NCBI RefSeq assembly: GCF_000181795.1
Contig: NW_003526941.1
Location: forward strand, 8,486,495-8,543,085
Origin: Trichinella spiralis
Lineage: Eukaryota
Length of the DNA stretch: 56,591 nt
Direction of reading: 5' to 3'
The position numbers were made by a program, and so were the translations under genes. This document shows, piece by piece, positions 2,274 to 56,591 of the stretch. The notes beneath the pieces were generated by a model. That model was not told the DNA's origin and made no database searches. It saw nothing but the letters and a program-made list of their open reading frames with translations. Numbering within the stretch: position 1 is the stretch's first letter; each line of letters opens with the position of its first letter.

Positions 2274-3374
2274 CTCAAAGAAAAATTACCAAATTGTTAA
2301 ATTTCATGTGATAAAATAGGTGAACTGATGAATGTAATAGAAATAAAATAGACCACGAATGTTCTGAAATTCTTCAAAAGCAAATAATACCAATAACTGG
2401 CGTACTGTGCTTACAAATAAAAATCGTAAAAATCTGGAAGTTATGTTCTTCCAATGTGACGAACAATATTACTTATATTTTGATATTGAAACGAAAATTA
2501 TCATTATCAGCACTGTTGGAAGTTTAATGTATTAAAGTATAATCGAATTTAAAAAGAATTGGAGATGATTAATACAGTAATTTTAATGCAAGTGTAAGTT
2601 CCAATTATTCGTACTGTAGTTTTTTGTTATTTTTTGTTTTTGATTTTTTAATGAAAACTTACAGCTGAAAATTCTGTATAGCTTTAATATAAATAATGAT
2701 GCTGTGTAAAGTAATTTCGACATATTATACATTGAGAAAAATGACTGAGCTTGAAATGCTTCAGCAAAAATTATTTCGTAAATTTTCTGTGTATTTTTTT
2801 TCAAAATTAGAGGTGTATTCTAATTTATAATCATTGCTTATTTATTTTTACATTTAAATTTTGCTGTGAATGAAAATGTCTAATGAAATAATGCTACTGT
2901 AGATGAATAGTCTATATAACTTAAGTTTTGGTGGTTAGTGCTGTTTAATGTTGCAGAGTTTGATGTTTGCAGTGTGACTTAAAAGTTACACATTTTTCCT
3001 GAATTTTAAAAATATTATTATAAGTTTTAATAATTGCTCTAAAAATGAACAAATTTAGTGCCTTAATTATTTAACACACTGTATTTGTTTTTATTTAAAG
3101 TTTTTTTCTTTATCCATATTGCACAGAAACATGCGTAACAGTGACAATAGAATACAAATCAAATTCTACATATGTGAAGATGATTTTATTTGCTATTTTT
3201 GAAATTAGCGTACTGTTCAGTGTTTGGGCTATTATGGTTTTTTTCAAAGATTTATAAAATAAACATGAATTTCATGATAGAATAATTTTTATTTTAAATT
3301 TCAAGTTTTAGCCACAATAGTTGTTTTGATTTCACAGTTTATTTTGTATTAATAAATTGTTTCATGCAGAGTTT

Positions 3375-5445: not shown

Positions 5446-6004
5446 GGTGTGAAACAAGGTGAAAAAATTATTCCTTTTTTCTTTTTAATTCACTTTCAAC
5501 TTCCAATTCATTATTATCGTTGTTTCAATTTGATAAGTTGTTTATTTAAAAATACAAATGAAAGTGCAAAATTTAAAAATACAAAATTCGGTGCTCACCG
5601 CATGCATATGATTAGCAAATATTTTTTTCTTACTCTTCTACCTGCAGATCAGTTTCTCCGTTTTGATTTTATTATCGTTGAATGTATTTTTTTCAACTGA
5701 TTTTTACATATTATGTTTTTTAAAAAACTTTTCAAAGTTCATTTAATATTTATAAATGTAAATGTACTTGCTTGTTACTGATCTGAATTAATTTTGTTGA
5801 CGCTTTGTTTTTTGTTTAGTAAAAAAATTTCTTTAACAGAAAGTAAAATAATTTTAATTCATTTCCAATTACTGACTTCAATTAGGAAATCGTCTTAAAT
5901 TTGTTCAGCTTTGGCTTACAATTTTTTTGAAAAACTTGAATTTTTTTAATATGTTGTGTACTGTAGTTTTTTGTTCACTTTCACTATTTGAAGTGGGTTC
6001 GAAA

Positions 6005-9000: not shown

Positions 9001-9262
9001 TGGATAGAATATTGGCTACTAACTGTTGGATAGAATGATCAGTCTAAGAATGATAATCAGTCAAAGAATGAACTGAATGTGTAAATGAAGCATCGACGTG
9101 GCGCGTTATGTCTGACAGTTCTTAGCAGTTTCAGTTGAAATTAAATAAAATGAAGGAGTGTACATCTGAAAATGTTTCCGTGGACCCCACTTTTGGGAGC
9201 CACTGGTTTAGAATACAATGTTCACAGCGATGCAGTTTTTAATCTTATTCCTCATACTGTGC

Positions 9263-9324
<62 letters not shown>

Positions 9325-10668
9325 ATTGATCGAGCTTTTTTGTTGGTTGGAGGTGGGACTGAGATGGGAGCAAAAATGATTTGATTTGATTTTTAAAATG
9401 GCTCATATAATTTAAGAAAAAACTGTTCTAGATTAATGAAAAGTTGGAAATTGGACCGGTGTGTCAGCCTGAAGATAGTTCACTTTTGGAACGGTGCTTC
9501 ATTGCTTGCGAAGATGCCGACTTGGAGTGCATACCGAGAAATGAGATGCTTGTTTATGATTACAAGGGCAATCGCAAGGTGTCGCTGTCAGGCAGTCCTT
9601 GCTTGGATTGGAATTATATTTACAACGTTTACGCCCAGTTGCCTGAAACCACTTCTGCTGAGCTGAAGCATTTTTGGAACAGATTCTTTTATCACAGCAA
9701 TTCATCAGATTTTCGGCGCTGGTTGGACATGTTTTCCACCGTTTCTTATGTGGGATGTTTGAATTTGTTGACCAGAATTTCCAGTGCCAAGGATTTGATG
9801 AAGCATTTTCCGGAAAATGTGGATACGGTCATCTTCAAGGGACCGATCTGCTTTACCAACAAGGCCGACTTTTTAGTACCGGAGCCTTGTTTCAAGACGT
9901 GCGAAGATGACTGGGTGGACAAGAAGGACTGTTTGCCGAAGCATAAAAAGCAGTGAGTGCAGTCAGCAGTGCAAAAAAAAATGATTTGAATTTTGATCAA
10001 ATTCTGCTTCTCTGATTCATGTTAATTTTGGAGGAAAAGCTTTTTATCTTTCCGTTTTCAAAATTGATCCTTTCTCTCATTCTTGTTATCTCATTTATTG
10101 TGGCGTTCAGTTTGCAGTTGTATTATATATATGCAAGTGTATTTTTTATTTTCAGAGATTTTATATACTTTGGTTATAAAAACACAACTGTCAGTGGAAG
10201 ACCGTGTCGGATGTGGGACAAAGGTAGACTTGATATTCTTCTGCCGTGGGAACTTACCGGTCCGCATCATAATTACTGCAGAAATTATGGGAAAGAAAAA
10301 ATGGGCCCGTGGTGTTACGTTGAAGATAGGAATGTTGTTCGTGAAGCATGCTTTAAAACTTGCGCTGACAAGAAGATTACTGAAGAAATGATGACTTCTT
10401 ACAGTGTTCGATCTTGGAAAAGGAATCCCTGTGATGTTAATTCTGAAATCAGAAGTTTTTGTTGTTCTTATGCAGGTAGGTTCAGTTCACTTGTGCAGTA
10501 ATTAAGTAATGTGTTACAATTTCTGCAGTTTTCGTTCTCCAAGCAAAGGTTGTTGCTATTTATTACTTTGCAAAAGCTGATAAATATTAGCAACGCATTT
10601 TATTCGAAATGTTAATTCACTGAATAATTGCGCTTTGTATCATTGATTAGATGAATTTTATAGATTTA

Positions 10669-13105: not shown

Positions 13106-14203
13106 GCAAATTAGCATAGTTTGACAATCAGTGAATAGTGCGCTTCTCTACTTCACTTTGTTGGCATCTGTGTGGATATGCGCCTCTATTCCGCTTTTAT
13201 TACTTGCTATTTTATTATTTTTTATACACTTTTATTATTTTTCACAATTATCAAACACTCAATATGTGAAATATGGAAAAGTGAAAATTTTTCTTCAGCA
13301 TTCAGTTAAAATGCAATTTAAAATTAAAATCATGAAAATGTAATTAATAATTAAAAATACCGTAATATACAGTATACTTATTGCCAAATCACCGAGAAAA
13401 GGTTACAAAATAGCAGACCAATCAGAACAAGACGAAAGTCCTCACAATAGTTCATATTTTAATTCAGTCATTTTCAATTAATTGCGTTGCGGTGCGTACC
13501 AAATTGTTCAAGTAAAGAAAATAGTATCAAGGTATCAATTGAATATTGACATACACATTTTCTTGATGTTTTTACATGTTCGTGTGTCTACGTTTAAGTA
13601 TTTGATTACTTTTAATATACATAGAAATTCAAAAAAACTAACTACATATTCTCAGTTTTATAAAGTTAATTTAGTTGTTCAAAAATATTCATGTTTCAAT
13701 TTGTTATTAAGCGCATACGTCTAGATATAAACGTGTAGAATACGTTCAATTTTTGAATTTACACTTGCTTGTGGCATTGAATAGGTCGAATATCAATCAT
13801 TAATCGCTTAGTATTTTCTATTATGCCAAACAACGAAATACCATTTGTCGTACAGAGAATCATCAAACCTTATGTTATAACTTTATATTATATTTTCAAA
13901 ATGTAGATGATCACAGACATTTGGTAAATTAAATTTTTTTTCTGCTTAATTTAGTTTAGTGTGCTTATGTTTTGCTGAAAAGCATTTTGCCATGAGTTCC
14001 ATTTATGTAGGACATTTTTGAATTTCCAAATTTCAAATCCAGAAATGCGGAGGCGTGTTTTGACTATGTCAATGTTTTTGTTATGGTGTTCTCTGTCAGA
14101 TAGTTTATATTTTGACTGAATTTTAAAAATAAAGGTCATTTTTGAATTTTCAAATAACTGCCATTGATTGTTTAATTTTTCAATTTGCTTGAATTGCTTC
14201 TAC
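13106..14203 (+). repeat. Dispersed repeat, direct copy of ~48418-49495
   Basis: Collinear high similarity, e.g. AATAGTGCGCTTC..ACTTCACTTTGTTGGCATC, GTGGCATTGAATAGGTCGAATATCAATCA and TGTCAGATAGTTTATATTTTGACTGAATTT occur in both copies. Confidence 0.92.
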
Positions 14204-14213
14204 NNNNNNNNNN
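14204..14213. other. Assembly gap (10 N)
   Basis: Run of N. Confidence 1.
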
Positions 14214-14355
14214 GTATTTAAAAGTGGGTATAAGGGCCGATACAAAAATTTTATGAAGACGAGACATCACCTACTCTCAACATAATATGAAAAAAGTCTT
14301 AGTTTTACAGAAAAAATATCTTACTAATCTATTGCTTACTACAAACATAGGGTAA

Positions 14356-15772
14356 TTTAATTAAACTAAGGAATCACTTCACCCTTTCGAAGTACCCTAA
14401 GCCATTGCAAACAGAGACAGCACACACAAGAAATCACATTTACCTCCTGCCTTCTCTTGTTCTGCGTTGTGCCGTCCGTGATTTGGTTCGTGTCGTCCGC
14501 ATTTTCACTTTCGATCTACTTTATTAATTTTACCTGCAAAAATGATATATTAAATCAAAACTGCTCTCATTTCATTACAAAGTAGACTTACGACAAATAT
14601 AATAATTAAGTGCTTTTCAATTAAAAGATAACTATTTTAAAAATGAGTATTCAAATGTTTCGAAAAAAAGTAACACAAGTAGAAAAAAAGAGGAATTACT
14701 TTTCAGCAATTTAAAATAGACGTCAGCAAAAACTATTCAGCGTCATAAACTCAGAGAACGTTTTTCAACGCTACCACTTGCCACGTAAGTCAAACGAACG
14801 AGTGCGCCCTAACTGACGATTATACACCTTAATGCGATCGTTATTTGCATAGCGCAGCGTTCAAAACCGGTTTTTGTGCGTTGGAACTTCTTACTGAGGA
14901 TAAATTCTAACCTATGCCTCAATACAGTATGAACAGAATAAATAATATGCACTGCTCAATTCTACCAATAAAAACCATTTGAAAATTCAAAAATGACCTT
15001 GATATTTACAATTCAGTCAAAAAACACTATCTGGCAGAAAACTCCATACCGAAAAAACTGACTGAAACATAACCCACCTACGTATAACTGAAAATTTTCT
15101 TAAGTCAGAAAACCAAGTAGTTAAAATGGAGATAATTTTATATGAGCAACTTTCTGGCAAAAGCTTGTTTATAGTTAGTTGAACGTACATGTTAGCTATT
15201 GAAAATTCTTATTCTATTTCGAAAGACTATATTCTAATAATAGATAAACAATGTGCACAGGGTGTTATTTAATGAAACTTAATTGTACGGAAATTTGATG
15301 CTCATTAAGTCACTTATCATCTCATATTGAGAAATCATAGAGAATATACTGAGAATTTATGTTTTATATTGCTATGTGATTACGGCTTGAAAATGAAAAA
15401 ACTGCCACTTACTGTCAAATGCGTCATCTTCTCTTTGTTGATTTTCATGCTCTTTTCATGTTAATTGAAAAATTATTTTTCAGAAATTTTTCCAAAAATT
15501 AATAATGAAAATAAAAAGCAAATCTAGTGTTTGGCGTTCAAAGTTGGTCTTCAGTCGATTTTCCAAACAAAACGCAGTGCTTCCATCCACGGACGACGTA
15601 AAACTAAAATTATTTCCAATATGTCAATAATGGAAAGGAAATCGCATGCAAATTTTTATTTTATTCATTTCTCCTGATAAATATCACTAGCCCACTGTTT
15701 TCATTGCGTTTTATTTACTTAAGTAATGCACTGCGTTTGAGAGAAAATTTAATTGTAACCGTGTCAAACGTA
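14356..15772 (-). repeat. Dispersed repeat, inverted copy of ~49646-51064
   Basis: Reverse-complement match including an identical >100 bp stretch (~15521-15635 vs ~49785-49900). The 14356-14750 part is more diverged. Confidence 0.92.
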
Positions 15773-38885: not shown

Positions 38886-41539
38886 TTCTGTAATTACAAT
38901 AAATAATTCGCGATATACAAATGATGTTGCTCTTTTCCAAAATTTCCCTCAAAAAACACTCAAATCAATTTTGTTATTCAAACAGTAAATCATTGACTAA
39001 TAAAATTACAGTTCTCATTTACACGCAAACTGATAATTAAATGGAAGACCTGAGAAATTAAACATCAAGGAAAGTTTTAAATTATCTCCATGCTTTTATA
39101 TTTTGTAAACTTACAGGTTTGTCTGAAATAGTCAATTATGGAAACTGTAAAGCAAACTACGAAAAATCATTTCTAAAGTGAAATGGATATTTTAAAATTA
39201 TACTTGATCAATTTAATAATAATTACACGCCGGTTAACTTGTTTGCGATATAAAAACACATGAAAAGTAATTTAATGTAAAGTGAAAATAAGGTAATATT
39301 TTTGATTACGGTGCTTATCATTAAATGATGTTGCCAAATTGCACTTCATAAAAAACAAAATATTTATTAAATTGATTTTTCAAATATTTTTTATGAATTT
39401 ATTATTAAATTAAATATTTGATCACAAGTAAAATTTTTACATAAGTTTGGAAAAATGGAAAAGATAATTAAGGTTTAATATTTCAAGATTCAAATTTGAA
39501 CAACTGTTATAATTAAGGAAATGAAAATTCAGGGTATTTTGAAAAGAAATAAGAATGAAACTTCAAATAAATGTTTCAAATGAACAAAATTAAAACTAAA
39601 AAAGCATTGGATTGCAGTTTTGTAATCATGTTTCTTGATTATTGTTGCTGACAGTAATAAGTATTGAATGACTTGTCATTAGTTGAACGTGAACTTCTCT
39701 AGGAAAAGTATCAAAAACTGTAAAACAAAAAAAAATTTCATTTTTTGCATAATATTTAATCAACATGAAAGCAGTCTGCTAAGAAGTGCTTCAGGCATAA
39801 GAAAAAATTTCCAGCGAAAATGTTTTCGGTTGAAATTTTGTTAATTGGGTAAGTATTCGTTAAAAATTGTTGGTTAAATGGAATCATTTGATCTGCACCA
39901 AGTAACTGGTGTAGAATTCAACACAAAATTAGTCGGAATGATAGAAAATTCTTTAACGCAATTAAAATATCATTGAAAAATATGACGATTTACATATATA
40001 AGCAACTTTCATTTATATATTTTCACAATATGTGATGAGATTTAAGTAAATGATGCAAAACAATTTTAATTTATGCATGTAAAACATATAAATGCTATAT
40101 TTTACTTAGAAAAGTAGTTTGTGTTGAATTTTCATTTTCACGATTATCAGTAATCACGTAATCAACTTTCATGGACAAGAGTGTCATAACTTTTTAATTT
40201 TATGCGTTAATGTAATGAAATAGGAATAATTTAGCATGCTTTTTCAATGAAAGAAAGAATTTTGAAAATGAGCATTGAGCTATTAGCCATTTATTGAGAC
40301 TACGTGTTTGAATAACTTATAATTTTTTCTGTTTATTACACACTTTTTGGAAGTGCTGATTATCTTTGATATGAGAATAGCCATTATTTATTTTATCAAA
40401 CGATAAATCGAGTAAAATAAATGTCTGATGTAATTGCATAAGTGAAATATTAGTTTGTATAATAATTCTTCTTCCAAATAAATGTTACGGTTAATTTTAT
40501 ATTTAACTATAGCCTTTTTGTGTCTCTTTTAAGAGTCTTGCATGATTTGATTGGCGCCGTTGTGTCATTTTGTCATTAGTACTAAAATAGAAATTAAGGA
40601 ATTTTTAAGAATAGAAAGAATTTGTCTTTTGAAAGTCCAGTTTTAAGCTGTTTGCATATTGATAAATCGCTTCCAAAATTTGAATATGATTCCGTTCACT
40701 TTTTGCCTGCTGATGAAAATTTGTATTTGTTGTTCACGTTGGCAAACTTTATTTATATTCGAAGGTAATTTCGTTGTTTTTTTTAATTGAAAAGTAAGCA
40801 ATCTGAAAATTTTGATGTGTAGTAAGTTAATCTGAAACAGCTGACTGTATGGATGAAAGGAAAAAAACCGAAAATATGTCGATTTAAAATATTGAAAAAT
40901 TCGTGATTAATCTTTGTTCATTTTGTCGTTGATGTTCAGATTTTTTTAATCATTTATTCGTCGTCGCATTTTTATTTAAAATATTGTATTTCCCAGTGTT
41001 CAGGTATGCGATTATTGTAATTTGAAATTTTCATTTCTAGAAATTTTGTCTTTTGATCAAGTTTTATAAGTTCACACAATTGCGATAATGGTTTAAATTA
41101 TAAATAAAATTTAAAATGAATCTATGGAAAATAGCTGATATATTAGATGTTCAGGTATAAAATTTCTTTTTCTGACTTGATCTGTTCATGACATTACCAT
41201 GAAAAGAAATGATTTTAAATAGAAATTGAAGGATTTTTCAACTTATTTATTATTTTAATAATTTATATTTTTAGCTATTTTAACTTTAATTCCCATGTCA
41301 TGATATACAAACTTGAATACATATCATCGTTTACAGTGTTTGTGATAGTCATGCGGTGATTGTGATTGGTCAGTAAAAGTTTAAATTAGGGCGTTACTTA
41401 TTAAAGTGTTTTTTCCTCGAGGTTCATTCTTGCGTATTTTTTTCACCTTGTGCTTTTGGTTTGCAACGGTTGTTTACTCTTTAGCTTTCGAACAGGTTTT
41501 ATCATTTACTTTGCTGCGTTGAATTTTTCCTCAGTGGTG

Positions 41540-42484
41540 ATGAGTTCCGCTAACAAGAATAGAATTCGACGCATTCATTCGAAAGATTCGCATTTAGAAA
41601 ATGGTTCTGATAATGGAGTCACTGCCAAAGGGGTGCTGAAATTTGAAATTCACGAAGAATTTGTCATACACAAAGTGCACGATGCAGTTACGAATACAGT
41701 TGAAGTTTTCAACATTTGGATGTTAGAACGGTATTTGTTTGATTGTGTGGATTTGGGCGTACTTCTTGGTGGTAGGAAGTGTTCGAATTTGAAGGCGATT
41801 AAAAAGAAATTCAAATGCGTCATTGAATGTGGTGAGAGTGGCTACGCGATGGAGCCAGGTCAAGAGAGAAGAATGGCGATTTTTGTTGATTTCAAATGTA
41901 AGCATGAAGAATATGAAGCGGTGTATGATGGCATACGTTCTTCGTTTGCGACATTTTTGAAGGATGCAATTCAGGAAGCAATTTTTCGTCCGAAAGACAT
42001 CAAAGGACGAAAGAAAGCGACTAAATTTCATAAGAAAAGGACTATCCCAGATGAAGTATTAATCACTTACGATATGTATGAAAAAGTTCCAATGCTTAAT
42101 GGAGATGGTATGTATCGATTGATTGGCTCAGACTGGCGAATGGGTCCGGCAGAGGTGAAAGATGATGGTAATGGTAGCGATTTAGTTTACCTGATTTCTA
42201 TTATGGCAGTGAGAAAACATAACAATAGAAGGCAAAAAGTTGGAAATCTTTCGATAGTGTATCCTTCAACTTCTAAAGCAGAGCCTAAATGTGTGGATAA
42301 AAGAGTGTTGTTGATTCAGAAGAGTGATGATGAAGAATGTGAAGAAACGTTGAAAGTACCACACGAACCACCAAAGGAACACAGTGAATTTCCTTGTTGT
42401 TGTGCATTTTGCAAGGAGACGCTTCTTTGTTCCCTTTCTGATGGAACGGAAATTCAAAGATGCTGTCGAAAAAACGACGAATGA
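41540..42484 (+). CDS. Intronless ~314-aa protein of unknown function with a degenerate KH (STAR/maxi-KH-like) domain and a Cys-rich C-terminus
   Basis: Long uninterrupted ORF in AT-rich DNA, with ATG just after a TTTTCCTCAG acceptor-like site. VDLGVLLGGRKCSNLKAIKKKFKCVIECG resembles KH helix-GxxG-helix-strand with a broken GxxG. C-terminus CCCAFC..C..CC. Confidence 0.7.
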   Translation: MSSANKNRIRRIHSKDSHLENGSDNGVTAKGVLKFEIHEEFVIHKVHDAVTNTVEVFNIWMLERYLFDCVDLGVLLGGRKCSNLKAIKKKFKCVIECGESGYAMEPGQERRMAIFVDFKCKHEEYEAVYDGIRSSFATFLKDAIQEAIFRPKDIKGRKKATKFHKKRTIPDEVLITYDMYEKVPMLNGDGMYRLIGSDWRMGPAEVKDDGNGSDLVYLISIMAVRKHNNRRQKVGNLSIVYPSTSKAEPKCVDKRVLLIQKSDDEECEETLKVPHEPPKEHSEFPCCCAFCKETLLCSLSDGTEIQRCCRKNDE

Positions 42485-42523: not shown

Positions 42524-42551
42524 AACCCAACGGCCCTCCTGAGGGCCACTA
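42524..42551 (+). promoter_or_regulatory. Histone-type 3' UTR stem-loop (SLBP/CDL-1 site-like)
   Basis: AACCCAAC-GGCCCT-CCTG-AGGGCC-ACTA: 6-bp stem (42532-42537/42542-42547), 4-nt loop with C at position 1 and U at position 3, CCAAC 5' flank and AC 3' flank, 47 nt after a stop codon. Confidence 0.72.
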
Positions 42552-43879
42552 CTTTACAAATTCCATTATTGATTGTGCAGAGTGAAATAATTGTAGTGAA
42601 ATTATTGAAAATATTATGAAAGTTCAAAGAAAAGATATATAACATCATCTGTGAAAATTACAAATCTTGTTTAAACTGATTTTGACTGTTTCGATAACGA
42701 AACCGACAATTTAGAATTTTTTGTTGTTTCAGAATTAATTTGGTAGAAAAATTTCATGAAAAAATACAGGTATATTTGGAGTTTGATCGGTGATGAATTT
42801 CGAGAAAGGTTTTTTATTATCAATGAAAAAGCCTGTTTTTTACACTTCTTTCTTCTTGAGCACAATCTGAATTTATCAGAAATTGTACAACGGTTTTGTC
42901 ATTCAAAAAGAAAGCATTTACTTCAAATGTAAAGTCGACATTTTTTATCTGAAAGTTCGCGTATCCCAGGGATGGCAGATTCAGCATTTGAAAATGATTG
43001 TCTTGAATCTATTTTTCCCTTTCACCGCATTTCAGCATGAGGTTCAGGAGAAAATCTACTGTCAAACTTGTAGAAGATATTAACAGGGTTGATACCTATT
43101 TTATCAGATTTGCTTGCCATCGTATTTCTGTTCATTTCTCAAGCAAAGACATTACCCTGCTTCAAAAATTTGATACATAATCAACATTTTCGGTTGTACC
43201 TTTTATGTAAATATTGTACGCAGATACAATATTCTTGACTATTCTAGCCATATCGTGATGTGTAAAGTGGAGAACTTTCAAATTGGAGTGTCCCCCCCCC
43301 CTCCGATGACTACATAATCATTGTATCCATTCAGGAATCAGTACGTGATGAGACTTTCATTAGTGAGAAATTTAAAATTTCTTTTATAATCTGTTTTTCA
43401 GTTGTAACGATTAAGTAAATATTCATTCTGAACATATGCAAAATAGCTTTCTTCCATTTTCTTACATTACATTCAACTATAATTAAGGTTAAAAAAGCAT
43501 TTCAAACTTTTGCAAACATTACGTCTTTAAAAACAGAAAAGAATATTTATGTGATAAGAATTAATAATTTGATGATGGCATGACAGAGTTTAATGATTGT
43601 CAAGTATGGTAATAATCAATATTAAAACAAGAAATTATTTTATAACAATACAAACATAAAAATAAAATATTGGAATAAATATTTTAAATTTTTTATATGT
43701 TATGCTATTAAATATCAAGTCATTTTTAATTTAATAATATATCCATTGTAAAATTTTACTTGCATTTCATGTTTTGTAATACAGTAATGTTAAGTTGCTA
43801 TTGAAAATGCTGATTGGAAATGAATTGTCGACTTTGCACTGGATAAATTGTACCGTTGTAGGAAATTGTTTGCTCAACA

Positions 43880-44374
43880 ATGACAACAAGACTGCATCGT
43901 CTTCTTCCCGAGGGTGTGAAAAAGACACGCGTGTTTCTACCTGACACGTGGATGAAAGTGTTGAAGCCTGAAAAAAATGAGCACTTGCCAAAATACATGG
44001 TAAAATTTGCAGTATCTCCAGAAATGAATGCAGACGACGTGAGGGAATATTTGAAAAAGATATACCAGCTGCCAGTGCGGGAGGTGCGCTTGGAAATTCG
44101 GCAGGGCAAAATGATTCGTCACTTTGACGAATACAAGGAGCCATCTCGAATGGCCGGAGAATTTGGCAAAGTGATCGACAAGCAGCCGGACGAGACGGTA
44201 GCATATGTCACGATGCGCAAGGATTTCAATTTCGAATTCCCCGAATTATTTCCAGAAATAACTTTTGAACGAGAAATGAAGCAGCTGAAACGGCTGCAAC
44301 AGTCTGTCGATAAAGCGAACGAGCTTGCTGAAACGCAGTGGCATCGTAAAGGCATTCCTGCTTGGTTCAATTAA
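43880..44374 (+). CDS. MRPL23: Mitochondrial ribosomal protein L23 (uL23m), intronless CDS
   Basis: RVFLPDTWMKVLKP..LP..VKFAVSPEM..DVREYLKKIYQLPVREVR..QGK..KQPD..VAYVTM..FEFPELF matches metazoan MRPL23. Confidence 0.92.
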   Translation: MTTRLHRLLPEGVKKTRVFLPDTWMKVLKPEKNEHLPKYMVKFAVSPEMNADDVREYLKKIYQLPVREVRLEIRQGKMIRHFDEYKEPSRMAGEFGKVIDKQPDETVAYVTMRKDFNFEFPELFPEITFEREMKQLKRLQQSVDKANELAETQWHRKGIPAWFN

Positions 44375-45354: not shown

Positions 45355-46915
45355 ATGGAAACGTGCAGCAAGCCTTCAAGTAAATCTTTGTTTCAGATTG
45401 TTGTTGTTGATTGAAAATATTGTTTTATTGAATTATTATTATGGAAATTTTCTCTTTTCAGAAGTTTTGATTAATAATTCCGTTCTTGGTCAGGGTAGGC
45501 TGAATCAGCTTGGTGGAATGTTCATCAACGGACGTCCGTTGCCAGTCTATCTGCGTCTGAGAATTATTCAGCTAGCGTTGGCTGGCGTTCGTCCGTGCGT
45601 CATCAGTAGGCAGTTGAAAATTTCCCACGGTTGCGTGAGTAAAATTTTGGGTCGCTTTGCCGAAACAGGCAGCATAGCACCTGGTCAGGTACATAGTAAT
45701 AATTTTAAATATCATCTTTTGTTTTCACCGTTTTTACCATATTCAGCTTGGTAATAAGCAGAGACAATCAAAAGTGGATAGGAAAGGTTGTTGGAATAGC
45801 GTAGGACCAATTTTGAACGATCGTCCACCAGTATCTGATTACAGCATAAATCGCATTTTGGGTTTGCGTGAAACGAAAGGTATGAATGAAATTTTCCACA
45901 AGCCGGTTCGGCTGTTATTTAAAGTTTATATGAGAAGAGTGAAGTACTGACAGGCAGAGACAGAGTGGTATAAAAGTGACAGCGCGATCGTTGAGATGCA
46001 AATCACTGACCACTTGGTGACAGTTCAATTTGACTGACCACTACTGGTCAGGGCGGCATCGTTTTTACAGCTGATAAGCGAGGCCATGATTGTAGTAGAT
46101 CTGGGTGAGCGATAGGATGCGCTTGAAGGCGTCTGCTTTGGCAGACGGTCCGGCGGCTGCTTGGGAACAGCGGCGGTTCATCGTAGTTCATGCTTTATTG
46201 ATAAAAGTCCAATAATAATTAACGACCACGTCAACAAGTTCTCACTTCGACCTTTGCTCGCGTTGACCGGTCGTTACGCTTAACCTGAAAATTAGCATAA
46301 AATTTTTGTTTGTTCTTTGTATAAAGACTATTCTGAATGTTCAGTTTTCGTAAAACAATATACGCGGTAAAGCAATACTTTGAAAATTTCACTTCGTAAT
46401 GCTATCCTAAAACGTTTTGTGCGGAAATTGTTTTCCAACGTCACATTCTTCAACGCTTTGTAATTTCAATGCATGCAAATTGTATTATCATTGTATCATG
46501 TTTTGTTTTTTAATTAGAAAAGAAAGAAGATCGAAAAAATGCTCGTCGTCAACGATGCCATTTTACCGTAAGCCAAGTAGAACTGTTGGAGCGAGCGTTC
46601 CACGAAAACAATTATCCAGATGCCAAACGTCGCCAGGAACTTGCCGTTGAAGCTTGCATTAGCATTGAAAAAATTCAGGTGAAAAATCTAGCAACCAACG
46701 TCGAAAGTGATTTTCATTTTAGAAATTATCGCTGTTGTTTATAGGTGTGGTTCAGCAATCGCCGTGCTCGATATCGAAAGCAGCTCGCCACCGCTGCTGC
46801 AGCTTATAATAATAATAATAATAATAATAATGCAGGTTCGCCGTATTTCTTTTGGCCATGTTCACTTCCAATTTCTTTGCCATCCGCTGCCGTTGCTTTC
46901 GTTTCACACGTGTGA
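45355..46915 (+). CDS. Pax3/7 (gooseberry/pax-3)-like transcription factor: PAI subdomain + octapeptide + S50 homeodomain (exons 45355-45379, 45462-45688, 45747-45879, 46518-46678, 46745-46915)
   Basis: [51 protein letters not shown], octapeptide YSINRILG, homeodomain [19 protein letters not shown]..|[13 protein letters not shown]. All junctions are GT-AG and in frame. Confidence 0.85.
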
Positions 46916-48417
46916 AGTTTGTGATACAAATAAAACATAATTAAAAAATTAATTAAGCGATAAACAGTTTTTTGTTTCAACATCAACACAAATTATTTTT
47001 ACCATTGAATTTTTCTACTGTTATTTAAAATCTTTTTATTACCTTTTAATCTTTTTCAAATTTTTTTCAACATTCTTACTGTAATTGGGTTGACTATAAC
47101 GAAACACTAAATTTTCAGAGCTACCAACTCCATAAGCGAATTACCATCAGTTTTTTTTGATTATTCTGTTTTTCAAACTTCGTTAGTTGTCAGTTCTGAG
47201 TTGTCAATTCGATCCATTCGAAGAAACAACACAAATTTTCAAAAGCCGCAACTGTGGAAGGATATATAACGCATACATACGATCGTAATTGTTTTCAGTA
47301 TGCAATGGTAAGTGAGTTTGTTCATGTGCATGTATATATATATATACGGGATATTTCATAAACTGTGTAATCAACTGAATAAAGCAAAAAACTTATTTAT
47401 ATACATTTTTTAATCAAATTTTCTAAACAAATGTGGTCAGCAAGCAGTTTATAGAAAGAAAACATAAATTTATTAAAATTAAAAATTGTTATCCAACTTG
47501 AAAAGTTATCATGAAACTGTTTACAATTACCCTGACACGTGACGGCTAATCTGCATAAATAAGTAATAAAAATTTATGCGGTGTCTTCTGTAGCGGTCGT
47601 TTTGTACCAATTTGTGGTTGTGCTTTAATTTTCAGCATTAATACTTTAATCACTTGAATTTACCACTTATTTAACAATAACCTAAATTGCATTAAATTCG
47701 AATGTTTTCTAAATATTACAATTCAAGAAATTCGACTTTCATGTGACGACAGTGGATGATATACAAAGATTTTTCATTAGCAGTTTTCAGAAGCTTTGTA
47801 CACAGTTTCAAATTGTCGATTCTTTCTTGCTTATATTATATCATGTTACAATACTGAGCCTTCAACATTAGCTTATCTTGCCACCGCGTCGATGTTGTTT
47901 GTTGGTTTGGTTACGTGAAGTTTCATTTAAATTATTACAACACGTTGGCTAACATAAAACAAATCAAACAAATCCTGCACAAAGTAAACAAGAGATATGT
48001 GCATTATTTATCAGTCATCAGAGTTGAAATGAAATTACGGGAAAATTGTCGATAAAATTTATTTCTGCTTGTGAGCCACTTTTGCATCACATCCACAATG
48101 CATCGTATATGTCTGATAATGTAGAATATATATAAAAAGAAAAGTAATAAAATGACATTATTCAAGAAAATGTATATATGAATTCAGATTAGCAAAAAAG
48201 TAATTTATCAATAATTTTGCCTTTCGAAAGGGCAGTTTATCTGTTGAAAAAATTTCGATCAACTGCTATAAGATTGAGAAAAAAACTTCCATTTCCTATT
48301 CTAAATTCAGTTTATCAAAAGTGAATAAATAATTGTTTAAAAAAATTAACGTCACAATATTGCTAATTTACTGAGCAAGTGAAAAAATCCACTGCATGTA
48401 AGTAACGGATGAATTGT

Positions 48418-51064
48418 GCAAATTAGAGTAGTTTGAAAATAAGCCTGCCAATCAGTCAATAGTGCGCTTCCTCACTTCACTTTGTTGGCATCCACGTTGA
48501 TTTGCGCCCCTATTCCACTTTTATTACTGGTATATTGCTTTTTCACAGTTATCAAATACTCAATGTGTGTAAACAGTCAAATAATCAAATTGAAAATTTT
48601 TCTTCAGCATTGAATTAAAATACAAAGCAAAAATAAAATCATGGAAATATAATTAATAATTAAAAATACGGTAATATACAGTATACTTATTTCCAAATCA
48701 CCGATAGAAGGTTACAACGTAGCAGACCAATCAGAGAAAAGCAAAGATCCTAACAATAGATCATATTTTCAATAAACTGTTGTGATGCGTAGCAAATGTG
48801 CATGTAAGTGAAGAAAATTGTATCAAGGTATAAATTGAATATTAACACACATATTTTCTTGATATCTTTACATGATCGTGCCTATGTTTAAGTATTTGAT
48901 TACTTTTTATTTTAATATGCACAGAAATTGAAAAAAAATAAATACATATTCTCAGTTTCATGATGTTAATTTAGTTGTTCAAAAACATTCATGTTTCAAT
49001 TTGTTATTAAGCTCAGCCGTCTAGATGTAAACGTAAAATACGTTCACTTGACACTTACATGTGGCATTGAATAGGTCGAATATCAATCACTAAGCGCTTA
49101 GTATTTTCTATTATGCAAAACAACGAAATACCGTTTGTCGTGCAGAGAATCATTTAACTTTATATTATATTTTCAAAATGTAGATCATCAGAGACATTTG
49201 GTAAATTAAGTTTTTTTGTCTGGTTAATTTTGTTTGTCAGTTAGCGCAGTTTAGTGTGCTTATATGTTGGTGAAAAGCGTTTTGCGATGAGTTCCATTTA
49301 TGTAGGGCATTTTTGATTTTTCAAATCTCAAATTCAAACAAGCGAAGGCGTGTTTTGACTAAGTCAATGTTTTTGTTATGGTGTTTTCTGTCAGATAGTT
49401 TATATTTTGACTGAATTTCAAAAGTTAAGGTCATTTTTGAATTTTCAAATAACTGTCATTGTTTGTTTAATTTGCCATTCTGTTTGAATTGCTTCTTCAA
49501 ATTATTTATTACTTTTCTTCTCTTCTTATAACAAGCCAGTATTTAATATAAAATGAGCATGCATTTCATTTTTTGATTGCTTTTAATATTTAAAAGGTGG
49601 TTTAGTAATAGAGATGAAATTATTGTTTCCGCAATGAGAATTGCTTTTACGTTTAACACGGTTACAGTTAAATTTTTTCTCAAATACAATGCATTAGTTA
49701 AGTAAATAAAGCGCAATGAAAACAGTGGAATAGTGATATTTATCAGCAGAAATGAATAAAATAAAAATTTGCATGCGAGTTCGTTTCCATTATTGACATA
49801 TTGGAAATAATTTTAGTTTTACGTCGTCCGTGGATGGAAGCACTGCGTTTTGTTTGGAAAATCGACTGAAGACCAACTTTGAACGCCAAACACTAGATTT
49901 GCTTTTTATTTTCATTATTATTTTTTGGAAAAAATTCTGAAAAATAATTTTTCAAACAACATCAAAAGAGCATGAACATCAAATATGAGAAAATGATGAA
50001 TTTGGCAGTAAGTGGCAGTTTTTTCATTATTAAGTCGTAATCACATGGCAATATAGAACATAAATTCTCAGTATACTCTCTATGATTTCTCAATATGAGA
50101 TGATAAGTTACTTAATGAACGTCAAATTTCCGTACAATTAAGTTTCATTAAATAGCACCCTGTACACATTGTTTATCCATTATTAGAATATGCTCTTTTG
50201 AAATAGAATAAGAATTTTCAATAGCTAACATGTACGTTCAACTAACTATAAACAAACTTTAGCCAGAAAATTGCTCACTTAAAATTATCTCCATTTGAGC
50301 TACTTGGTTTACTGACTTAAGAAAATTTTCAGATATACACAGGTGGGTTATGTTTCGGAATTGTAAATATCAATGTCATTTTTGAATTTTCAAATGGTTT
50401 TTATTGGTAGAATTGAACAGTGCATATTATTTATTTTGTTCATACTGTATTGCGGCATAGGTTAGAATTTATCCTCAGTAAGAAGTTCCAACGCACAAAA
50501 ACCGGTTTTGAACGCTGCGCTATGCAAATAATGATCGCATTAAGGTGTATAATGGTCACTTAGAGCGCACTCGTTCGTTTGACTTACGTGGCAAGCGGTA
50601 GCGTCGTGAAATGTTCTCTGAGTTTATTTACGGCTTTCCGTTTTTAATTCTTGAAAGTATTCCATATTTCTCGTTCTGTTAATTTCTTTTCGAAACTCTC
50701 GTTATAATCATTTCGTTAATGTTATTTTTAATTGAAAATCAGTTACTTCTTCTATTTGAAAATTCATTGTTCAATTTTTCAATTTTGCTATGTGATAAAG
50801 TGGCAAAATTTTTGACTTAACATTTAGCATTCTTATAGATATGAACTATGAAGAAAAGAAAAGGCGAAAACACGGGCGATTCGTAGAGCAAGCAGATCGC
50901 GGACGACACGAAACGGATCACAGAAGACACGAAGCGGATCGCGGACGGCACGAAGCAGAACAAGAAAAGACAAAAGGTATATGTGGTTCCCCGTGGGTCC
51001 CAATTCTGTAGGTCTGGGCTAGGGATTCTTCGAAAGGGTGAAGTTATCCCATAGTTTTAATTAA
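48418..51064 (+). repeat. Continuous ~2.6 kb copy of the dispersed repeat found split at 13.1-15.8 kb
   Basis: 5' part is collinear with 13106-14203 and 3' part is the reverse complement of 14356-15772. Internal repeated motif GTCATTTTTGAATTTTCAAAT at ~49430 and ~50376. Confidence 0.9.
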
Positions 51065-51668: not shown

Positions 51669-54299
51669 TTATATAAATTTCTGTTTATTGAGAGACTGCA
51701 CTATAGTATAAATGTTCGGTGCTGAAGGGCGGTCTATTTACTTACTGCATTGCGTTATTTGGTCATTTCGATGCTTCACTGCAACAATTACGTTGTGATT
51801 GTTAGACTAAGAATATGAAGAAACCACGAACATCGGTTACAAAATGTATGACTCTACGTTTGCTTCATACGTCATTCCTGACAGGTCTGCTGACAGGTAT
51901 GAATTTTCATATATTTGCTATTTTTCATACAATAATTTCTTTCTTTCTCTTGGCACACTGCACTAAACATGCGCGCTTTTTAAGCTTTTCGTAGTTGTTT
52001 GATTTTAGTCTTTTTGAATGGAAACTAGCGCATTGTTCTTCAGTAATGATGTTCAATTAATATTCGAGACCTTATTACGGCCAAGCCAATACATAATAGT
52101 ACTAATGGTATATTTTGCTATAGTTTTCAATAGTCCTTACAAATCCATTTGTAAAGTAGTACTCTGACATAGCAGTTGATCCCCTCCCGCATTATCTTTA
52201 CTGTCCACTGTAATGTTTATTGCTAAGGTAACATACTTGCCCAATTGTTTAAAGAAAATGTCTGTCACCGGGATACTGCAGTCGCACAATCGCACCCCTA
52301 AATGCTTGTCACTGCTCAAATCGTGAAAAACATTGTTTCAGCATGACATAGGAAAACTGCTGTTACCTAGAGAACACACTTTTATACTACCACCTTTGAT
52401 ACTTTCAGAATGGCAGTAACGTTCCCTTCATTTTTGAAATGACTCCTTAAAGTTTCCATTATGTCATTGTACCGCCAATAGCACTGATATATACAGATGC
52501 ACGTATTTTCTGTCATTGAGAAAATAACTCAATGCCCATAAATGTTGTCAGTATTGATGAATGAAGCAATGCCTGAATATTATACGTGAAGATTGATTGG
52601 AAGAACGCATATGACAACTTCCACCTCCTCCATCCTTCAACTTCTCCCTCATTCCTTCCTGCTATGCTGTCCCACCCTCCTTTCCTTTCTAATGATCCCC
52701 ATCATTGAGCTCGTAATAATACTAAGCTGAACAGAGATCGCATTAAACTGAAAATTCTCCCCACCCTCCCCCCTATATTTCGAGCTGAATGAACAGCACT
52801 TAGCTGTTTTCATTTCATAATAATCTAATTTCTCATAATTGTTATCGACTAGCAATATAACCAAATCCAGGCTACTCGTGATTCTTTTGTTTTATTCTTT
52901 TCATAAAATGCAATGCAGAATTGTCACCCGCATAAGTTTGTTGAATTCATTGCAAATCGCTCAGTTACTGAATTTCTGCGATTAGGGTTTTTCTCACATT
53001 GTATGTGGCGCGCTGATGCAGTGCTCAACCAAGTTTGCAGTCTTACTATAAATCATCATAAGGTTTAAACAAAAGTTTAGTTAAAGCAAAATTTCAATAG
53101 TAAATAAGCTGTCAAGTGGCATACCCACTGGTGCAGCCGCTTACCATCATGTTGTCTATGCTGCGCACTTGTTAAATTCTGTGCTTAGATAAATTGTATA
53201 TTATAAAATTTCTGAAAAAGTATTTTATTTTCGAAACTATTTTCAATGGAAGCTATTTTTTTATTATCCATATAATTTTGATTAGAAGAAAAGCATTGAT
53301 AAAATATAAATTATTGAATCACCTTGTACTTTCAAGCAACTAAATTACACAACATGCATAAATACGCAGTAATAGCATTTCCGTTTATTTTTAGTAATTT
53401 GCGATGCTTCATGTTAATATGTTTCCGTTTTAGGTAATTTTAGGGACAAAATTTGCATAACAATGCAATATTACGTAGTAATAGGAAGTGTGTAAATAAA
53501 AACGTAATAAATTTCATCGTCTCGTTTCATAATGTGGTCGGGGGGGGGTTTATTTTACTGCGCTATTTTCTGATGGAAAATTAGGTCGTTCTTCCTGAGC
53601 AAAGTAAATAGTTATTTGCATAATTTACTTAGTATTATACATCTAATCAGAGAACTTCGATTACATTAGGTTATTCAGTTCAATGCAATGCTATCAATCT
53701 AGCACGTGGTCAACTATAATTCCGCTCTTCAACACCATCCATGAATAACTGGTAAGTTGGATTTGATATTTTGGTGGTGGTATGCTATGCATGTTACTAT
53801 ACTTATATGGTGAATGGAAACTGACGGGTTTCTTTTCTATTGTTGTTATTGCTAACTTTCAGGTACATCAGATGCGGAAGAAGAAGAAGTATCTATTTCT
53901 GTTTTTATTTAGAGATGACTGCATTAATATAATTCACTTTTAGAATTTGCATTATGTTATTTATATTCATATCAGTGAATATGAAACAGCCAAATTCTGA
54001 AAACTAACTGAATATGGTAACTATGCATCATGATGAATATGCCTTGCTTTTTACTTGAATTTTTCTTTTAAATTTAGATTGAAGGTTGCAGTGCCGTTAG
54101 CGCCACATTGCTTTCATTCTAACTGCAGCACTAATGTTAAATTATCATGTATATGATGTCATAGATTAGATGCCCTTGATTCAATTCTTTTAGGAATTGA
54201 AAATTACATTTGCCTTGCTACGTTTTGAAAATGCCCAGATGCAATCTATTATCAGTAAAGGCGGGTAAAAGCTGTTGAACAGTGGTTGTTGGAGTTGCT

Positions 54300-55746
54300 G
54301 ACCTGGCCTTCAAAAAACGTATGACAAAAAACAGTAAGTGTTGAATTTGTTTAATTACATAGCATGACGATAGGCGTATTAGATATAGGTATAATTGGGT
54401 AACTTCTGTAATTACAGATTACGTCATTAGCTGAGTTTTTATGGTGTTCCTTTTGCTCTGGGTAACGTGATACGTCATGTTCACATCATTTCGTTCAATA
54501 TTTGGCATCACAAACATCCGTAAGTATTGAATTTGCTCCTGATTGCAGTTGGATCGTACAGTGTTTTTGTGCAGTGACGTTTCGCAGTTGTTATAGTGTG
54601 GTTTCACTTATCATAAAAGTAAGAAGGATTGGATTGTAATTGTAGCAGATTCCCTGAGTCAGTCGAGCAGCGTTTGTACAAATCCTGACAACGTATTGGT
54701 GCTTGTTGCTGTCAGAGCGTTTCCAGTGTGATATGACAAAAATTAGTGAGTAGCTTTTGTTTATAATAGTTGTGGATGAAAAGCTTGTACCGTTGCAACC
54801 CGTGTTCGCATGGACGTAAAGGCATTTCCTAGCCGTCCCAGTGTGCCTTTGTTTTTCACAAATAGTATCGTTCATCAGTAAGTATTGATTTTGATTAATT
54901 AGATAGCTGGAAGATGCGAGTGTTACATGGATTGAATTTGAATATGTATCTGAATATGAATATGAATATTTATAATAACATATAACATCATTAGCTGAAC
55001 TGTTTTCAAGTTACTTTCGCTCTGGACACCGTGCTTAGTCGTGTTCACATCAGTTTGTTCTAAATGTGGCATCACAAACATCCGTAAGTATTTAACTTGC
55101 TCCTGATTGCAGTTGGATACGTAAAGTGTACACATTTTATCCATGACAGCATTACATTAACATCAAGCGAATTCGATGTTTCTTCTGATGACCCTCTGAG
55201 TTGAAGTTGACGCAGTGACGTTCATCATTGGTACTAATGTGATTTCACTTATCATAAGAGTAAGAAAGAAGTAAATGATTGTAATTCTAGCAGATTACGT
55301 TGAGACAGTCGAGTACCGCTAGTGCCCGTATAGATCTTTTGTCAGTGCGTTTCCAATGTGATATGACATTAGTAAGTAGTTTTTTTATAATAGCTGTGGA
55401 TTATGTCGTCTCATGAAGCCCGTACTGATGCCAACCAGTGTTCACGTGGCGTTTCAATTCCGTTTTCTAGCCGTCCCAGTGTGCCTTTACTTATCACAAA
55501 TAGTAAGAAGGAATTTGATATTATGACAGCAATGAAATATGTTAAATAGAACAGGTCGCTGTACATTTCAGCATTTTGTTCTTGATAGCAATGGATTACG
55601 TCATCATCAGAAAATTTTTGTTTATTCTCAGCCGATGGCACTCTCAAGTTGGGTTTCCTACGGTTCTGATGTTTTTCCTTGTCACACAAGGTAAGGAAGA
55701 ATTGCATTATTTTTGTAGTAAAACTGTTTTGTATTTAAAGTTTTAG
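54300..55746 (+). repeat. Diverged array of ~70-110 nt non-coding units separated by 22-31 nt GT..AG intron-like spacers; includes a tandem duplication 54418-54865 / ~54981-55502
   Basis: Units start with a GATTACGT-like motif and end with (AGTGTG)..AT(C/G)ACAAA followed by GTAAG. Four units (A-D) recur in the same order in two copies. Confidence 0.75.
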
Positions 55747-55939
55747 TGCGTGACTGTGAAGACGCCGCATCTTGAAAGATCTGTATCGAATGACGTCGTT
55801 ATTCTGCTGTTATTCGTCTTCAATTACTTTCTGTAATATGGCTGTAATATGGTATATAACTATATTCAACTATGAATTTTAGAATCATGAAATTCTTCAC
55901 TAAGAGCAGTAGAGCTGTACAAGTACTGGTACGTAGCAT

Positions 55940-56245
55940 CAAAGTAAGTGGATAAAGTAATGCAGGTAAGTAGAATCGAAGCGGATATATTAAAGTGCGT
56001 ACAGGTAAATGGATTGCAGGTAAGTACTGAAGGTAAGTACAATAATGTAAGGTGCAGGTGAGTAAAATGAAAAGGTAAGTTGTGCAGGTAAGTATAAAGA
56101 AGAATGATATCGTAGAGTAAAGTGGATTGAAGTTCGAGGTAAAGGTAAGTATGAGGCGTTACTCAAGGTAAAGGTAAGTATGAGGCGTTACTCAAGGTAA
56201 AGGTAAGTACGAGGCGTTACTGGGTAATTGCAGGACATGTAAGTA
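55940..56245 (+). repeat. Cluster of consensus 5' splice-site motifs, including a 29-bp tandem repeat (~56137-56221, ~3 copies)
   Basis: Ten exact GTAAGT plus one GTGAGT in ~300 bp, all on +. Unit AGGTAAAGGTAAGTATGAGGCGTTACTCA occurs about three times. Confidence 0.85.
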
Positions 56246-56287
56246 TCGAAGAGCCGGGTGATGAATTATGTAAATCTTCGAAAAAAA

Positions 56288-56591
56288 TACCTGAGGGAAT
56301 GCCTTGGGCATAGCCTGAAAATTTGCATATCCTCCTGAAGGCAAATATTGTGCAATAAAATGCTTTCGGCGTAGCCTGCGGTAATATGCAAATTTTTATT
56401 TGCCCTGGGGCATAGCCTGAGGCGACGCCTGCGGCTAAATTTCAAAAAATTTCAAAATTTCCAAAAATTGCCTGAGGCATAGCCCCAGGCATAGCCTGAG
56501 GGCAAATAAAATTTGCATATTACCCTGAGGCGATTAAAAATTTGCATAAAACCTCCCTGAGGGCAAATATTGTGCTATAAATTGCATGGGG
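56288..56591. repeat. Palindromic GCCN3-4GGC / ATTTGCAT motif array with an internal inverted repeat, running off the window end
   Basis: GCCN3-4GGC at 56301, 56402, 56415, 56427, 56470, 56482, 56494. Octamer at 56321, 56386, 56511, 56540. Inverted repeat 56380-56405 / 56500-56524. Confidence 0.85.

What the first reader, a model, noticed from the sequence alone, without database searches (positions are those of the whole stretch)
55940..56245. Dense strand-specific cluster of perfect U1-binding (5' splice site) motifs
Seen: MAG|GTRAGT at GT positions 55966, 56020, 56033, 56058, 56075, 56088, 56145, 56174 and 56203, plus GTAAGT at 55944 and 56239. Four are TGCAG|GTRAGT, an acceptor-like AG fused to a donor as in recursive splice sites but without pyrimidine tracts. 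Six of the nine lie in non-identical flanks, so simple tandem duplication explains only three. Known: U1 binding suppresses polyadenylation and promotes nuclear/chromatin retention of lncRNAs. Inference: a U1 landing pad or sponge, or a battery of alternative donors at the 3' end of the upstream cassette transcript.
Basis: partly seen in the sequence, partly recalled or inferred. Interest (0 to 1): 0.75.

Follow-up and report, generated by a model that had tools for sequence, protein, structure and literature searches.

The report
Splice-donor array in Trichinella repeat RNA
A 300-base patch packed with eleven splice-donor signals sits near the end of a spliced, many-copy repeat element of the parasitic worm Trichinella, where it likely binds the U1 splicing particle without being cut and would hold the element's RNA in the nucleus.

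Summary
The cluster is real: 9 MAG|GTRAGT in 306 nt against 0.1 expected. It is not a one-off locus. It is a recurring 3' part of a multi-copy Trichinella repeat element (at least 51.8-56.6 kb): an array of shuffled ~100-nt cassette exons, the donor cluster, then a palindromic ~220-nt CCTGAGG repeat. Contigs show + strand GT..AG splicing of the cassettes to within 200 nt of the cluster; no splice from a cluster donor was listed. The cluster grew by serial duplication of a ~13-nt GTAAGT..CAG unit, so more than three sites share an origin. The motif still outlasts its spacers (0 of 11 listed substitutions hit it, P about 0.03; some sites are lost). Best reading (0.4): a selected, unspliced U1-binding array that blocks 3'-end formation and keeps the RNA nuclear, like papillomavirus late elements. 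Main rival (0.3): neutral decayed minisatellite. Recursive splicing is not supported. Unexpected: 15 of 16 T. spiralis gene models of this family on megabase scaffolds lie on one scaffold, probably autosomal. U1 binding, strand and retention are untested.

The parts
55940..56245 (+). Donor-motif cluster: 9 MAG|GTRAGT + 2 bare GTAAGT + near-sites (GTAAAT 56005, GTAAGG 56047, GTAAAG 56139/56168/56197)
55908..56150 (+). Decayed ~13-nt tandem (GTAAGT..(TGC)AG units, 6-51 nt long) with nested 28/30- and 55-nt duplications; shared by many genomic copies; other copies carry an extra 49-nt duplication of 56047-56087
   Evidence: TRF permissive; joint 56087->56047 in DNA-type run X10 and in X1, X2, X19
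56137..56221 (+). Young 29-nt x2.9 tandem giving three of the nine sites; appears largely private to this copy (organism C contig skips 56134-56315)
   Evidence: little cover at 56170-56253 in all four runs; joint
56290..56591 (.). Palindromic CCTGAGG/ATTTGCAT repeat, ~220-nt tandem unit running off the window end; strong hairpin (z -6.1); AATAAA at 56354 and 56505
   Evidence: back-joints 56585->56368 and 56554->56333
55883..55943 (+). Predicted last cassette segment (acceptor TTTTAG at 55882, donor 55944); seen only in gene models, not in RNA joints
55747..55800 (+). Exon E start; spliced from exon D (donor 55691) to 55741 or 55747
   Evidence: X13 joint and X19 loose end, coordinates checked
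55807..55843 (.). ~37-nt segment that other contigs carry in unrelated flanks (separate short dispersed repeat)
   Evidence: differing loose ends on both sides in X10, X13, X20
54418..55690 (+). Array of paralogous ~100-nt cassette exons (A 54418-54519, B 54649-54745, C 54771-54877, A' 54982-55083, B' 55291-55371, C' 55393-55502, D 55589-55690); most begin GATTACGTCA-like and end (T)CACAA..|GTRAG; 22-34-nt GTRAG..AG spacers; A confirmed at both ends, others partly predicted
   Evidence: GT..AG joints 54333->54418 (X13, X20), 54519->54597 (X13), 55230->55291 (all four runs, so possibly genomic)
53604..53751 (+). Upstream intron 53604-53669 and exon from 53670 of the same transcript
   Evidence: X13 joint 53598->53670 with exon letters between
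51815..53600 (+). Left part of the same repeat element; left end not found
   Evidence: gene models of other copies match here and continue into the cassettes

Best explanation
The cluster is a recurring part, near the 3' end, of a spliced multi-copy repeat element of Trichinella, and it likely works as an unspliced U1 snRNP-binding array that would block 3'-end formation and keep the element's probably non-coding RNA in the nucleus. Shown: motif excess; multi-copy family; link to the cassette exons and to the palindromic repeat in other copies; + strand splicing to within 200 nt. Inferred: origin by serial duplication of a ~13-nt GTAAGT..CAG unit resembling the spacers between the cassettes, with selection keeping the U1-pairing core while spacers drifted. 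Untested: U1 binding, use of AATAAA 56354, nuclear retention.
For: Motif excess. Best U1 matches of the window are concentrated here, one 11/11. The sites have the same orientation as the donors that the element really uses (GT..AG joints). Contigs of RNA-type runs span several donors uncut (X13 55934-56096, X19 55959-56164, X20 55959-56155 and 55977-56133). 0 of 11 listed substitutions in 55940-56245 fall in the 81 motif positions (P 0.03). In the internal 55-nt duplication 21 of 24 motif positions match against 15 of 28 others (P 0.015). An organism C contig carries another TGCAGGTAAGT in a different flank. A T. britovi gene model reads QVSTEGKY, compatible with sites 56020 and 56033. AATAAA lies 115 nt after the last site. 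Precedent: 5' splice-site motifs upstream of a poly(A) site inhibit polyadenylation in BPV-1 and HPV16 (PMC11240274, PMC5618011, passages) and retain reporter mRNAs through U1-70K/ZFC3H1 in human cells (PMC9074902, abstract).
Against: A tandem origin alone explains the one-strand bias and much of the density, and the motif is most of the 13-nt unit. The variant table showed only 40 of 120 rows, and short repeated motifs attract cross-mapped contigs. Some sites are lost: the organism C loose end behind 56133 reads GGGAAGT where site 56145 stands; one X10 contig has an insertion in GTAAGT 55944; the 55-nt duplication lost its third site; the alignment start of that test was chosen on a motif. 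All runs are contigs whose RNA status is a guess, so strand over the cluster and DNA carry-over are open. The cassette RNA is spliced, and the laid contigs of other copies mostly lack the exon A stop codon of this copy (54463), so some copies may be coding mRNAs, which fits retention poorly. The retention pathway was shown in human cells, not nematodes.
Confidence: 0.4

Rival explanations
1. Neutral decayed minisatellite: a donor-containing 13-nt unit inside the repeat element was duplicated again and again by slippage; U1 may bind it but nothing selects for that.
For: Nested 13, 28/30, 55 and 29-nt periods. Copy-specific duplications still occur (49-nt in other copies, 29-nt x3 here). Some sites lost in other copies. 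It sits beside another tandem repeat at the window end.
Against: Units match only 51% overall yet nine cores are perfect. 0 of 11 listed substitutions in motifs (P 0.03) and 21/24 versus 15/28 in the 55-nt duplication. The cluster is kept in organisms A, B and C.
Confidence: 0.3
2. DNA-level protein-binding repeats: the element is a non-autonomous transposon (or enhancer-like array), and AGGTAAGT is a subterminal binding site for a transposase or transcription factor, next to the palindromic end.
For: Dispersed multi-copy element with shuffled modules. The adjacent 300 nt hold 16 of the window's 24 CCTSNGG and 4 of its 22 ATGCAAAT matches (octamer and AP-2 labels recalled). Two cassettes carry TTACGTCA. 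Conservation of a core motif is also expected of a DNA site.
Against: No matching inverted terminus in the window. No Pfam family in six frames of 52.0-56.6 kb. The conserved core is exactly the U1 complement and lies in the sense of the spliced transcript; no inverted copies, unlike the palindromic sites beside it.
Confidence: 0.15
3. Battery of real alternative donors: transcripts splice from one of these sites to acceptors beyond the window, for example into neighbouring host genes, so each copy donates a 5' exon array and may turn trans-spliced acceptors into cis-spliced ones.
For: The donors are stronger than those the cassettes use. Ab initio gene models use 55944 as a donor. Downstream exons outside the laid stretch would show only as loose ends, of which 24 of 140 were shown.
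Against: No GT..AG joint starts in the cluster among 15 of 18 joints shown. The one loose end at a donor (56087) is a genomic duplication also present in the DNA-type run. Contigs of RNA-type runs read through the donors.
Confidence: 0.12

Closest known systems
Papillomavirus late 3' UTR elements (BPV-1 53-nt element; HPV16 late regulatory element with four weak 5' splice sites). PMC11240274 and PMC5618011, passages read; Cumming 2003 seen only as a title in their reference lists
   Same: 5' splice-site motifs, apparently unspliced, upstream of an AATAAA in the last part of a spliced transcript
   Different: Eleven strong sites built from a tandem unit; cellular multi-copy repeat element, probably non-coding; no U1 binding or inhibition shown here
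5' splice-site-motif nuclear retention by U1-70K and ZFC3H1 (PMC9074902, abstract and outline read)
   Same: Intact donor motifs predicted to remain in a processed RNA
   Different: Known as quality control of misprocessed human RNAs; here the motifs look built-in and amplified; pathway not shown in Trichinella
[quoted passage not shown]
   Same: Dense one-strand donor cluster shortly after an acceptor-like site (55882)
   Different: Host is not a U1 protein gene but a repeat family with no Pfam match; no poison-exon logic shown
Recursive splice sites (AG|GT ratchet points; recalled)
   Same: Four TGCAG|GTRAGT junctions
   Different: No pyrimidine tract, no long intron, units 6-51 nt, no joints seen
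Nematode minisatellites and repeat-borne tandem arrays (PMC3634726, passages read: T. spiralis has few, short satellites of 12-32 nt period)
   Same: Short array under 1 kb with a 13-29 nt period
   Different: Unit equals the U1 complement, core better kept than spacers, embedded in a spliced element

Membership tests
U1-dependent poly(A)-inhibiting / retention element (BPV-1, HPV16 type) | 5' splice-site motifs on the sense strand of a transcribed unit | tested here: inconclusive
   + strand splicing up to 55747 and contig cover across the cluster; contigs give no strand and RNA status is a guess
U1-dependent poly(A)-inhibiting / retention element (BPV-1, HPV16 type) | Sites lie in the terminal exon shortly upstream of a used poly(A) signal | tested here: inconclusive
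   AATAAA at 56354 and 56505; use not testable with contigs
U1-dependent poly(A)-inhibiting / retention element (BPV-1, HPV16 type) | Motifs are not used for splicing | tested here: inconclusive
   0 GT..AG joints from cluster donors among 15 of 18 shown; 24 of 140 loose ends shown
U1-dependent poly(A)-inhibiting / retention element (BPV-1, HPV16 type) | U1 snRNP binds and represses 3' processing or export | not testable with these tools
   needs CLIP, reporter or fractionation
SNRNP70 exon 7a-type autoregulatory switch | Host gene encodes a U1 snRNP or splicing protein | tested here: not met
   0 Pfam families in 6 of 6 frames of 52.0-56.6 kb; relatives are unnamed hypothetical Trichinella models
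Recursive splice sites | Pyrimidine tract before YAG|GT inside a long intron | tested here: not met
   purine-rich units of 6-51 nt
Decayed minisatellite | Detectable short period | tested here: met
   13-nt period, 18.5 copies, 51% matches under permissive TRF settings only; default settings find only the 29-mer
Decayed minisatellite (neutral) | Uniform decay across the unit | tested here: inconclusive
   motif better kept (P 0.03 and 0.015) but tables truncated and some sites lost
Non-autonomous DNA transposon (MITE, Helentron, CACTA type) | Terminal inverted repeats or Helitron ends, target-site duplication | tested here: inconclusive
   no matching terminus in the window; right end runs off the window; no genome held
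snoRNA or miRNA cluster (cassettes) | Rfam match or stable conserved hairpins | tested here: not met
   no Rfam match over the cassettes or cluster at E<=1; folding z between -0.2 and +1.9 for 8 of 8 cassettes, -1.4 for the cluster
Schistosome-type micro-exon genes (recalled) | Symmetric 6-36 nt exons in one open frame encoding a secreted protein | tested here: not met
   exons mostly ~100 nt, stops in this copy, mixed frames among models

The most novel reading that the evidence does not exclude
A family of spliced non-coding RNA genes confined to one Trichinella chromosome, each tethered at its locus by a built-in U1 array, that marks that chromosome (for example for homolog pairing or chromosome-wide regulation), a nematode counterpart of chromosome-coating RNAs but on an autosome.
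Probability: 0.07. Interest if true: 0.9.

Novelty: new variant of a known kind. Interest (0 to 1): 0.55.

Why it matters
If selection on the motif holds, this is a repeat element that has amplified a dedicated U1 array to control the fate of its own RNA, a principle so far described for single viral and splicing-factor genes and for surveillance of misprocessed human RNA. It also exposes an apparently unannotated Trichinella RNA family that gene predictors have filed as over a hundred unrelated hypothetical proteins, and that seems confined to one chromosome. That gives a concrete handle on chromosome-specific repeats and nuclear RNA in a clade I nematode, where piRNAs are absent (PMC9071541, passage). 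If neutral, it is an ordinary minisatellite inside a lineage-specific repeat.

Tried and rejected
No genome was held for the window, so no genome-wide motif count. No RNA holder is on record among 24 runs listed; all laid runs are contigs. Depth ratios against the DNA-type run X10 (intron 0.016/0.007/0.070, exon D 0.056/0.022/0.096, cluster 0.19/0.09/0.12 for X13/X19/X20) lean towards the cluster being exonic, but contig depth cannot rank parts of a gene, so they are not counted. Likewise X10 depth 75 on the copy-specific piece against 2250-3900 on shared positions (30-50-fold) is only a rough sign of tens of copies. An exact 25-nt cluster pattern found nothing in metagenome or viral contigs. 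Rfam, Pfam and folding gave nothing for cassettes or cluster. A read-through translation of the cluster found only two T. spiralis models matching this copy at 96-100%. A U1 snRNA gene on the minus strand was rejected: only the 5' 11-mer matches and Rfam finds no U1. SL RNA, H/ACA and miRNA readings of the cassettes: no support; the T. spiralis miRNA tables (supplements of PMC3212509) are .doc files that could not be read, so a miRNA match is not excluded. X linkage was considered and judged unlikely, not excluded. Telomeric origin of the CCTGAGG repeat: not tested beyond a search listing. Literature searches that found no description of this family or cluster in their listings: Trichinella + micro-exon (15); + repetitive/tandem repeat/satellite DNA (18); + transposable elements/Helitron/repeat family (23); + lncRNA/multi-copy (28); + telomeric repeat (32); + microRNAs (39); transposon + splice donor sites + nematode (45, 0 hits); + X chromosome (61). 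Three papers were not held, and older Trichinella repeat-probe papers are likely outside the library. Earlier findings by sequence or place: none.

Full report
Setting. The window is Trichinella genomic DNA: 43877-44371 encodes mitochondrial uL23 with 99-100% identity to T. patagoniensis and T. spiralis entries, and two T. spiralis gene models match the region around the finding at 96-100%. No genome was held, so relatives came from sequencing-run contigs and predicted proteins.

Observation. Nine MAG|GTRAGT in 306 nt compare with 0.1 expected from shuffles of the region itself (largest 2 of 2000). The rest of the 56.6-kb, intron-rich window has only two such 9-mers. Nine of the 17 best U1 matches among 3006 + strand GT sites lie here, including a perfect CAG|GTAAGTAT at 56085 (the U1 5' end is recalled). 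Beyond the 29-mer x2.9, permissive TRF finds a decayed 13-nt period over 55908-56150 with nested 28/30- and 55-nt periods. Cut at each GT, the cluster is a chain of GTAAGT..(TGC)AG units of 6-51 nt that resemble the 22-34-nt GTRAG..AG spacers between the upstream cassettes.

What it belongs to. Laying four runs on 53400-56591 at 80% likeness placed 531-588 contigs per run with a wide spread of identity: the whole stretch is a repeat family. A read-through translation of one frame hit 65 protein clusters, and a profile hit 136 (120 listed). Nearly all are named hypothetical or conserved hypothetical (one has a stray domain name), from nine encapsulated Trichinella taxa, with none from the non-encapsulated taxa in the list. 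Their pieces map from 51815 to 56451 in shuffled and repeated order. Several continue from the cassettes into the cluster (P0024, P0025, P0044, P0065, P0072) or into the CCTGAGG repeat (P0051, P0072, P0074), so the three parts travel together. Frames are mixed (exon A: 38 models in one frame, 9 in another), but the search was biased to the query frame, and most laid contigs lack this copy's exon A stop. The RNA is therefore probably, not certainly, non-coding. Pfam, Rfam and folding give nothing for cassettes or cluster. The 3' palindrome folds strongly (z -6.1) and is a ~220-nt tandem that runs off the window.

Transcription. No run is on record as RNA. X13 nevertheless shows joints at predicted splice sites (53603->53670, 54333->54418, 54519->54597, 54877->54982, 55690->55741), X20 shares 54333->54418, and an X19 contig joins exon D to 55747; these are not listed for X1, X2 or X10. 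One GT..AG joint (55230->55291) appears in all four runs and may be genomic. The element is thus spliced on + to within 200 nt of the cluster. Contigs of the same runs cross several cluster donors uncut. None of the 15 of 18 joints shown is a GT..AG joint from a cluster donor. The only loose end at a donor (56087) is a 49-nt genomic duplication also present in DNA-type X10. Contigs give neither strand nor level, and DNA carry-over is possible.

Is the motif selected? For: none of the 11 substitutions listed in 55940-56245 falls in the 81 motif positions (P 0.03). The internal 55-nt duplication keeps 21 of 24 motif positions against 15 of 28 others (P 0.015). An organism C contig holds a further TGCAGGTAAGT in another flank, and a T. 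britovi model is compatible with two sites. Against: only 40 of 120 variant rows were shown; site 56145 is destroyed in a major organism C contig; one X10 contig disrupts 55944; the 55-nt duplication lost a third site; and the motif makes up most of the repeat unit. The signal is suggestive, not settled.

Mechanism. Most likely (0.4): serial duplication of a donor-bearing unit produced an array that U1 snRNP binds on the nascent RNA without a usable downstream acceptor. By analogy with BPV-1 and HPV16 late elements (PMC11240274, PMC5618011; passages) and 5'SS-motif retention through U1-70K/ZFC3H1 (PMC9074902; abstract), this would suppress the AATAAA at 56354 and hold the RNA in the nucleus. 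The binding and its consequences are inferred. Rivals: neutral minisatellite (0.3), DNA-level binding sites at a transposon end (0.15), true alternative donors splicing to exons outside the window (0.12). Recursive splicing and an SNRNP70-type switch (PMC3798272; abstract) fail their defining features.

Chromosome bias. Of the 16 T. spiralis models that sit on megabase scaffolds, 15 are on the 11,347,909-nt scaffold and 1 on the 6,373,445-nt one. Taking that scaffold as about 22% of the 11 longest, the binomial P is about 1e-9, but models are not independent and may be regionally clumped. In a second T. spiralis annotation the models lie on seven different contigs over 100 kb. Foth et al. (PMC5012510; passages and Supplementary Table 1a) give a longest scaffold of 12.04 Mb and an N50 of 7.55 Mb at n=3, so 11.35 Mb is the second longest. 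My hand sums of their ortholog counts (about 855, 784, 426, 405, 382) point to GL622785, in autosomal linkage group 2, not X. That table gives no T. spiralis scaffold lengths, and two supplement files were not searched, so this is inference. Intrachromosomal spread is common in nematodes (same paper, passage on rearrangements), so the bias need not be functional; it motivates the novel case at 0.07.

Papers seen: passages of PMC3634726, PMC9071541, PMC3212509 (supplements unreadable; they may bear on a miRNA reading), PMC11240274, PMC5618011, PMC4740406, PMC7846577, PMC9187692, PMC5012510 (plus one supplement part); abstracts of PMC9074902 and PMC3798272. None of these passages describes this family; the searches are named under Tried and rejected.

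Verdict. A real, non-chance donor cluster; a new variant of the unspliced-U1-site kind, carried by an apparently undescribed spliced repeat family of encapsulated Trichinella. Function is inferred, with a substantial neutral alternative. Interest 0.55.

Noticed in passing
window 42527-42571 (+), ORF 41405-42484: Histone-3'-type stem-loop (Rfam Histone3, 28.9 bits, E 1e-4, below gathering 34) 43 nt after the stop of an intronless non-histone ORF with no Pfam match and no Atlas look-alike. Possibly a non-histone gene with a histone-style 3' end.
   Followed up: partly
family of window 51815-56591: 15 of 16 T. spiralis models on megabase scaffolds lie on one 11.35-Mb scaffold, probably autosomal linkage group 2; none of 120 listed hits is from a non-encapsulated taxon.
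   Followed up: partly
window 56290-56591: Palindromic ~220-nt tandem rich in GCC-N3-GGC (AP-2-like, label recalled) and ATGCAAAT (octamer, label recalled) sites: 16 of 24 CCTSNGG and 4 of 22 octamers of the window; could give hairpin RNA or act as a binding array.
   Followed up: partly
window 55807-55843: Short segment found in many contigs with unrelated flanks on both sides, often preceded by GATGCA: a separate small dispersed element or promoter motif.
   Followed up: no
window 13122-15772 and 48446-51064: Second copy of a ~2.6-kb repeat (86-94% alike); the first copy is split by a 10-N gap at 14204-14213 with its two halves in opposite orientation, probably a scaffolding artefact. Whether it belongs to the same element is unknown.
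   Followed up: partly
window 54520-55392: Several GTRAG..AG spacers of 22-34 nt between cassettes look too short to be spliced; the B'-C' spacer is covered unspliced in contigs of all four runs, so unused donors may also decorate the body of the RNA.
   Followed up: partly
window 5876-10500 (+): Long ORFs with kringle-like cysteine patterns (read by eye), possibly a secreted multi-kringle protein gene.
   Followed up: no
window 45460-46920 (+): Paired-box plus homeodomain (Pax-like) gene read by eye.
   Followed up: no
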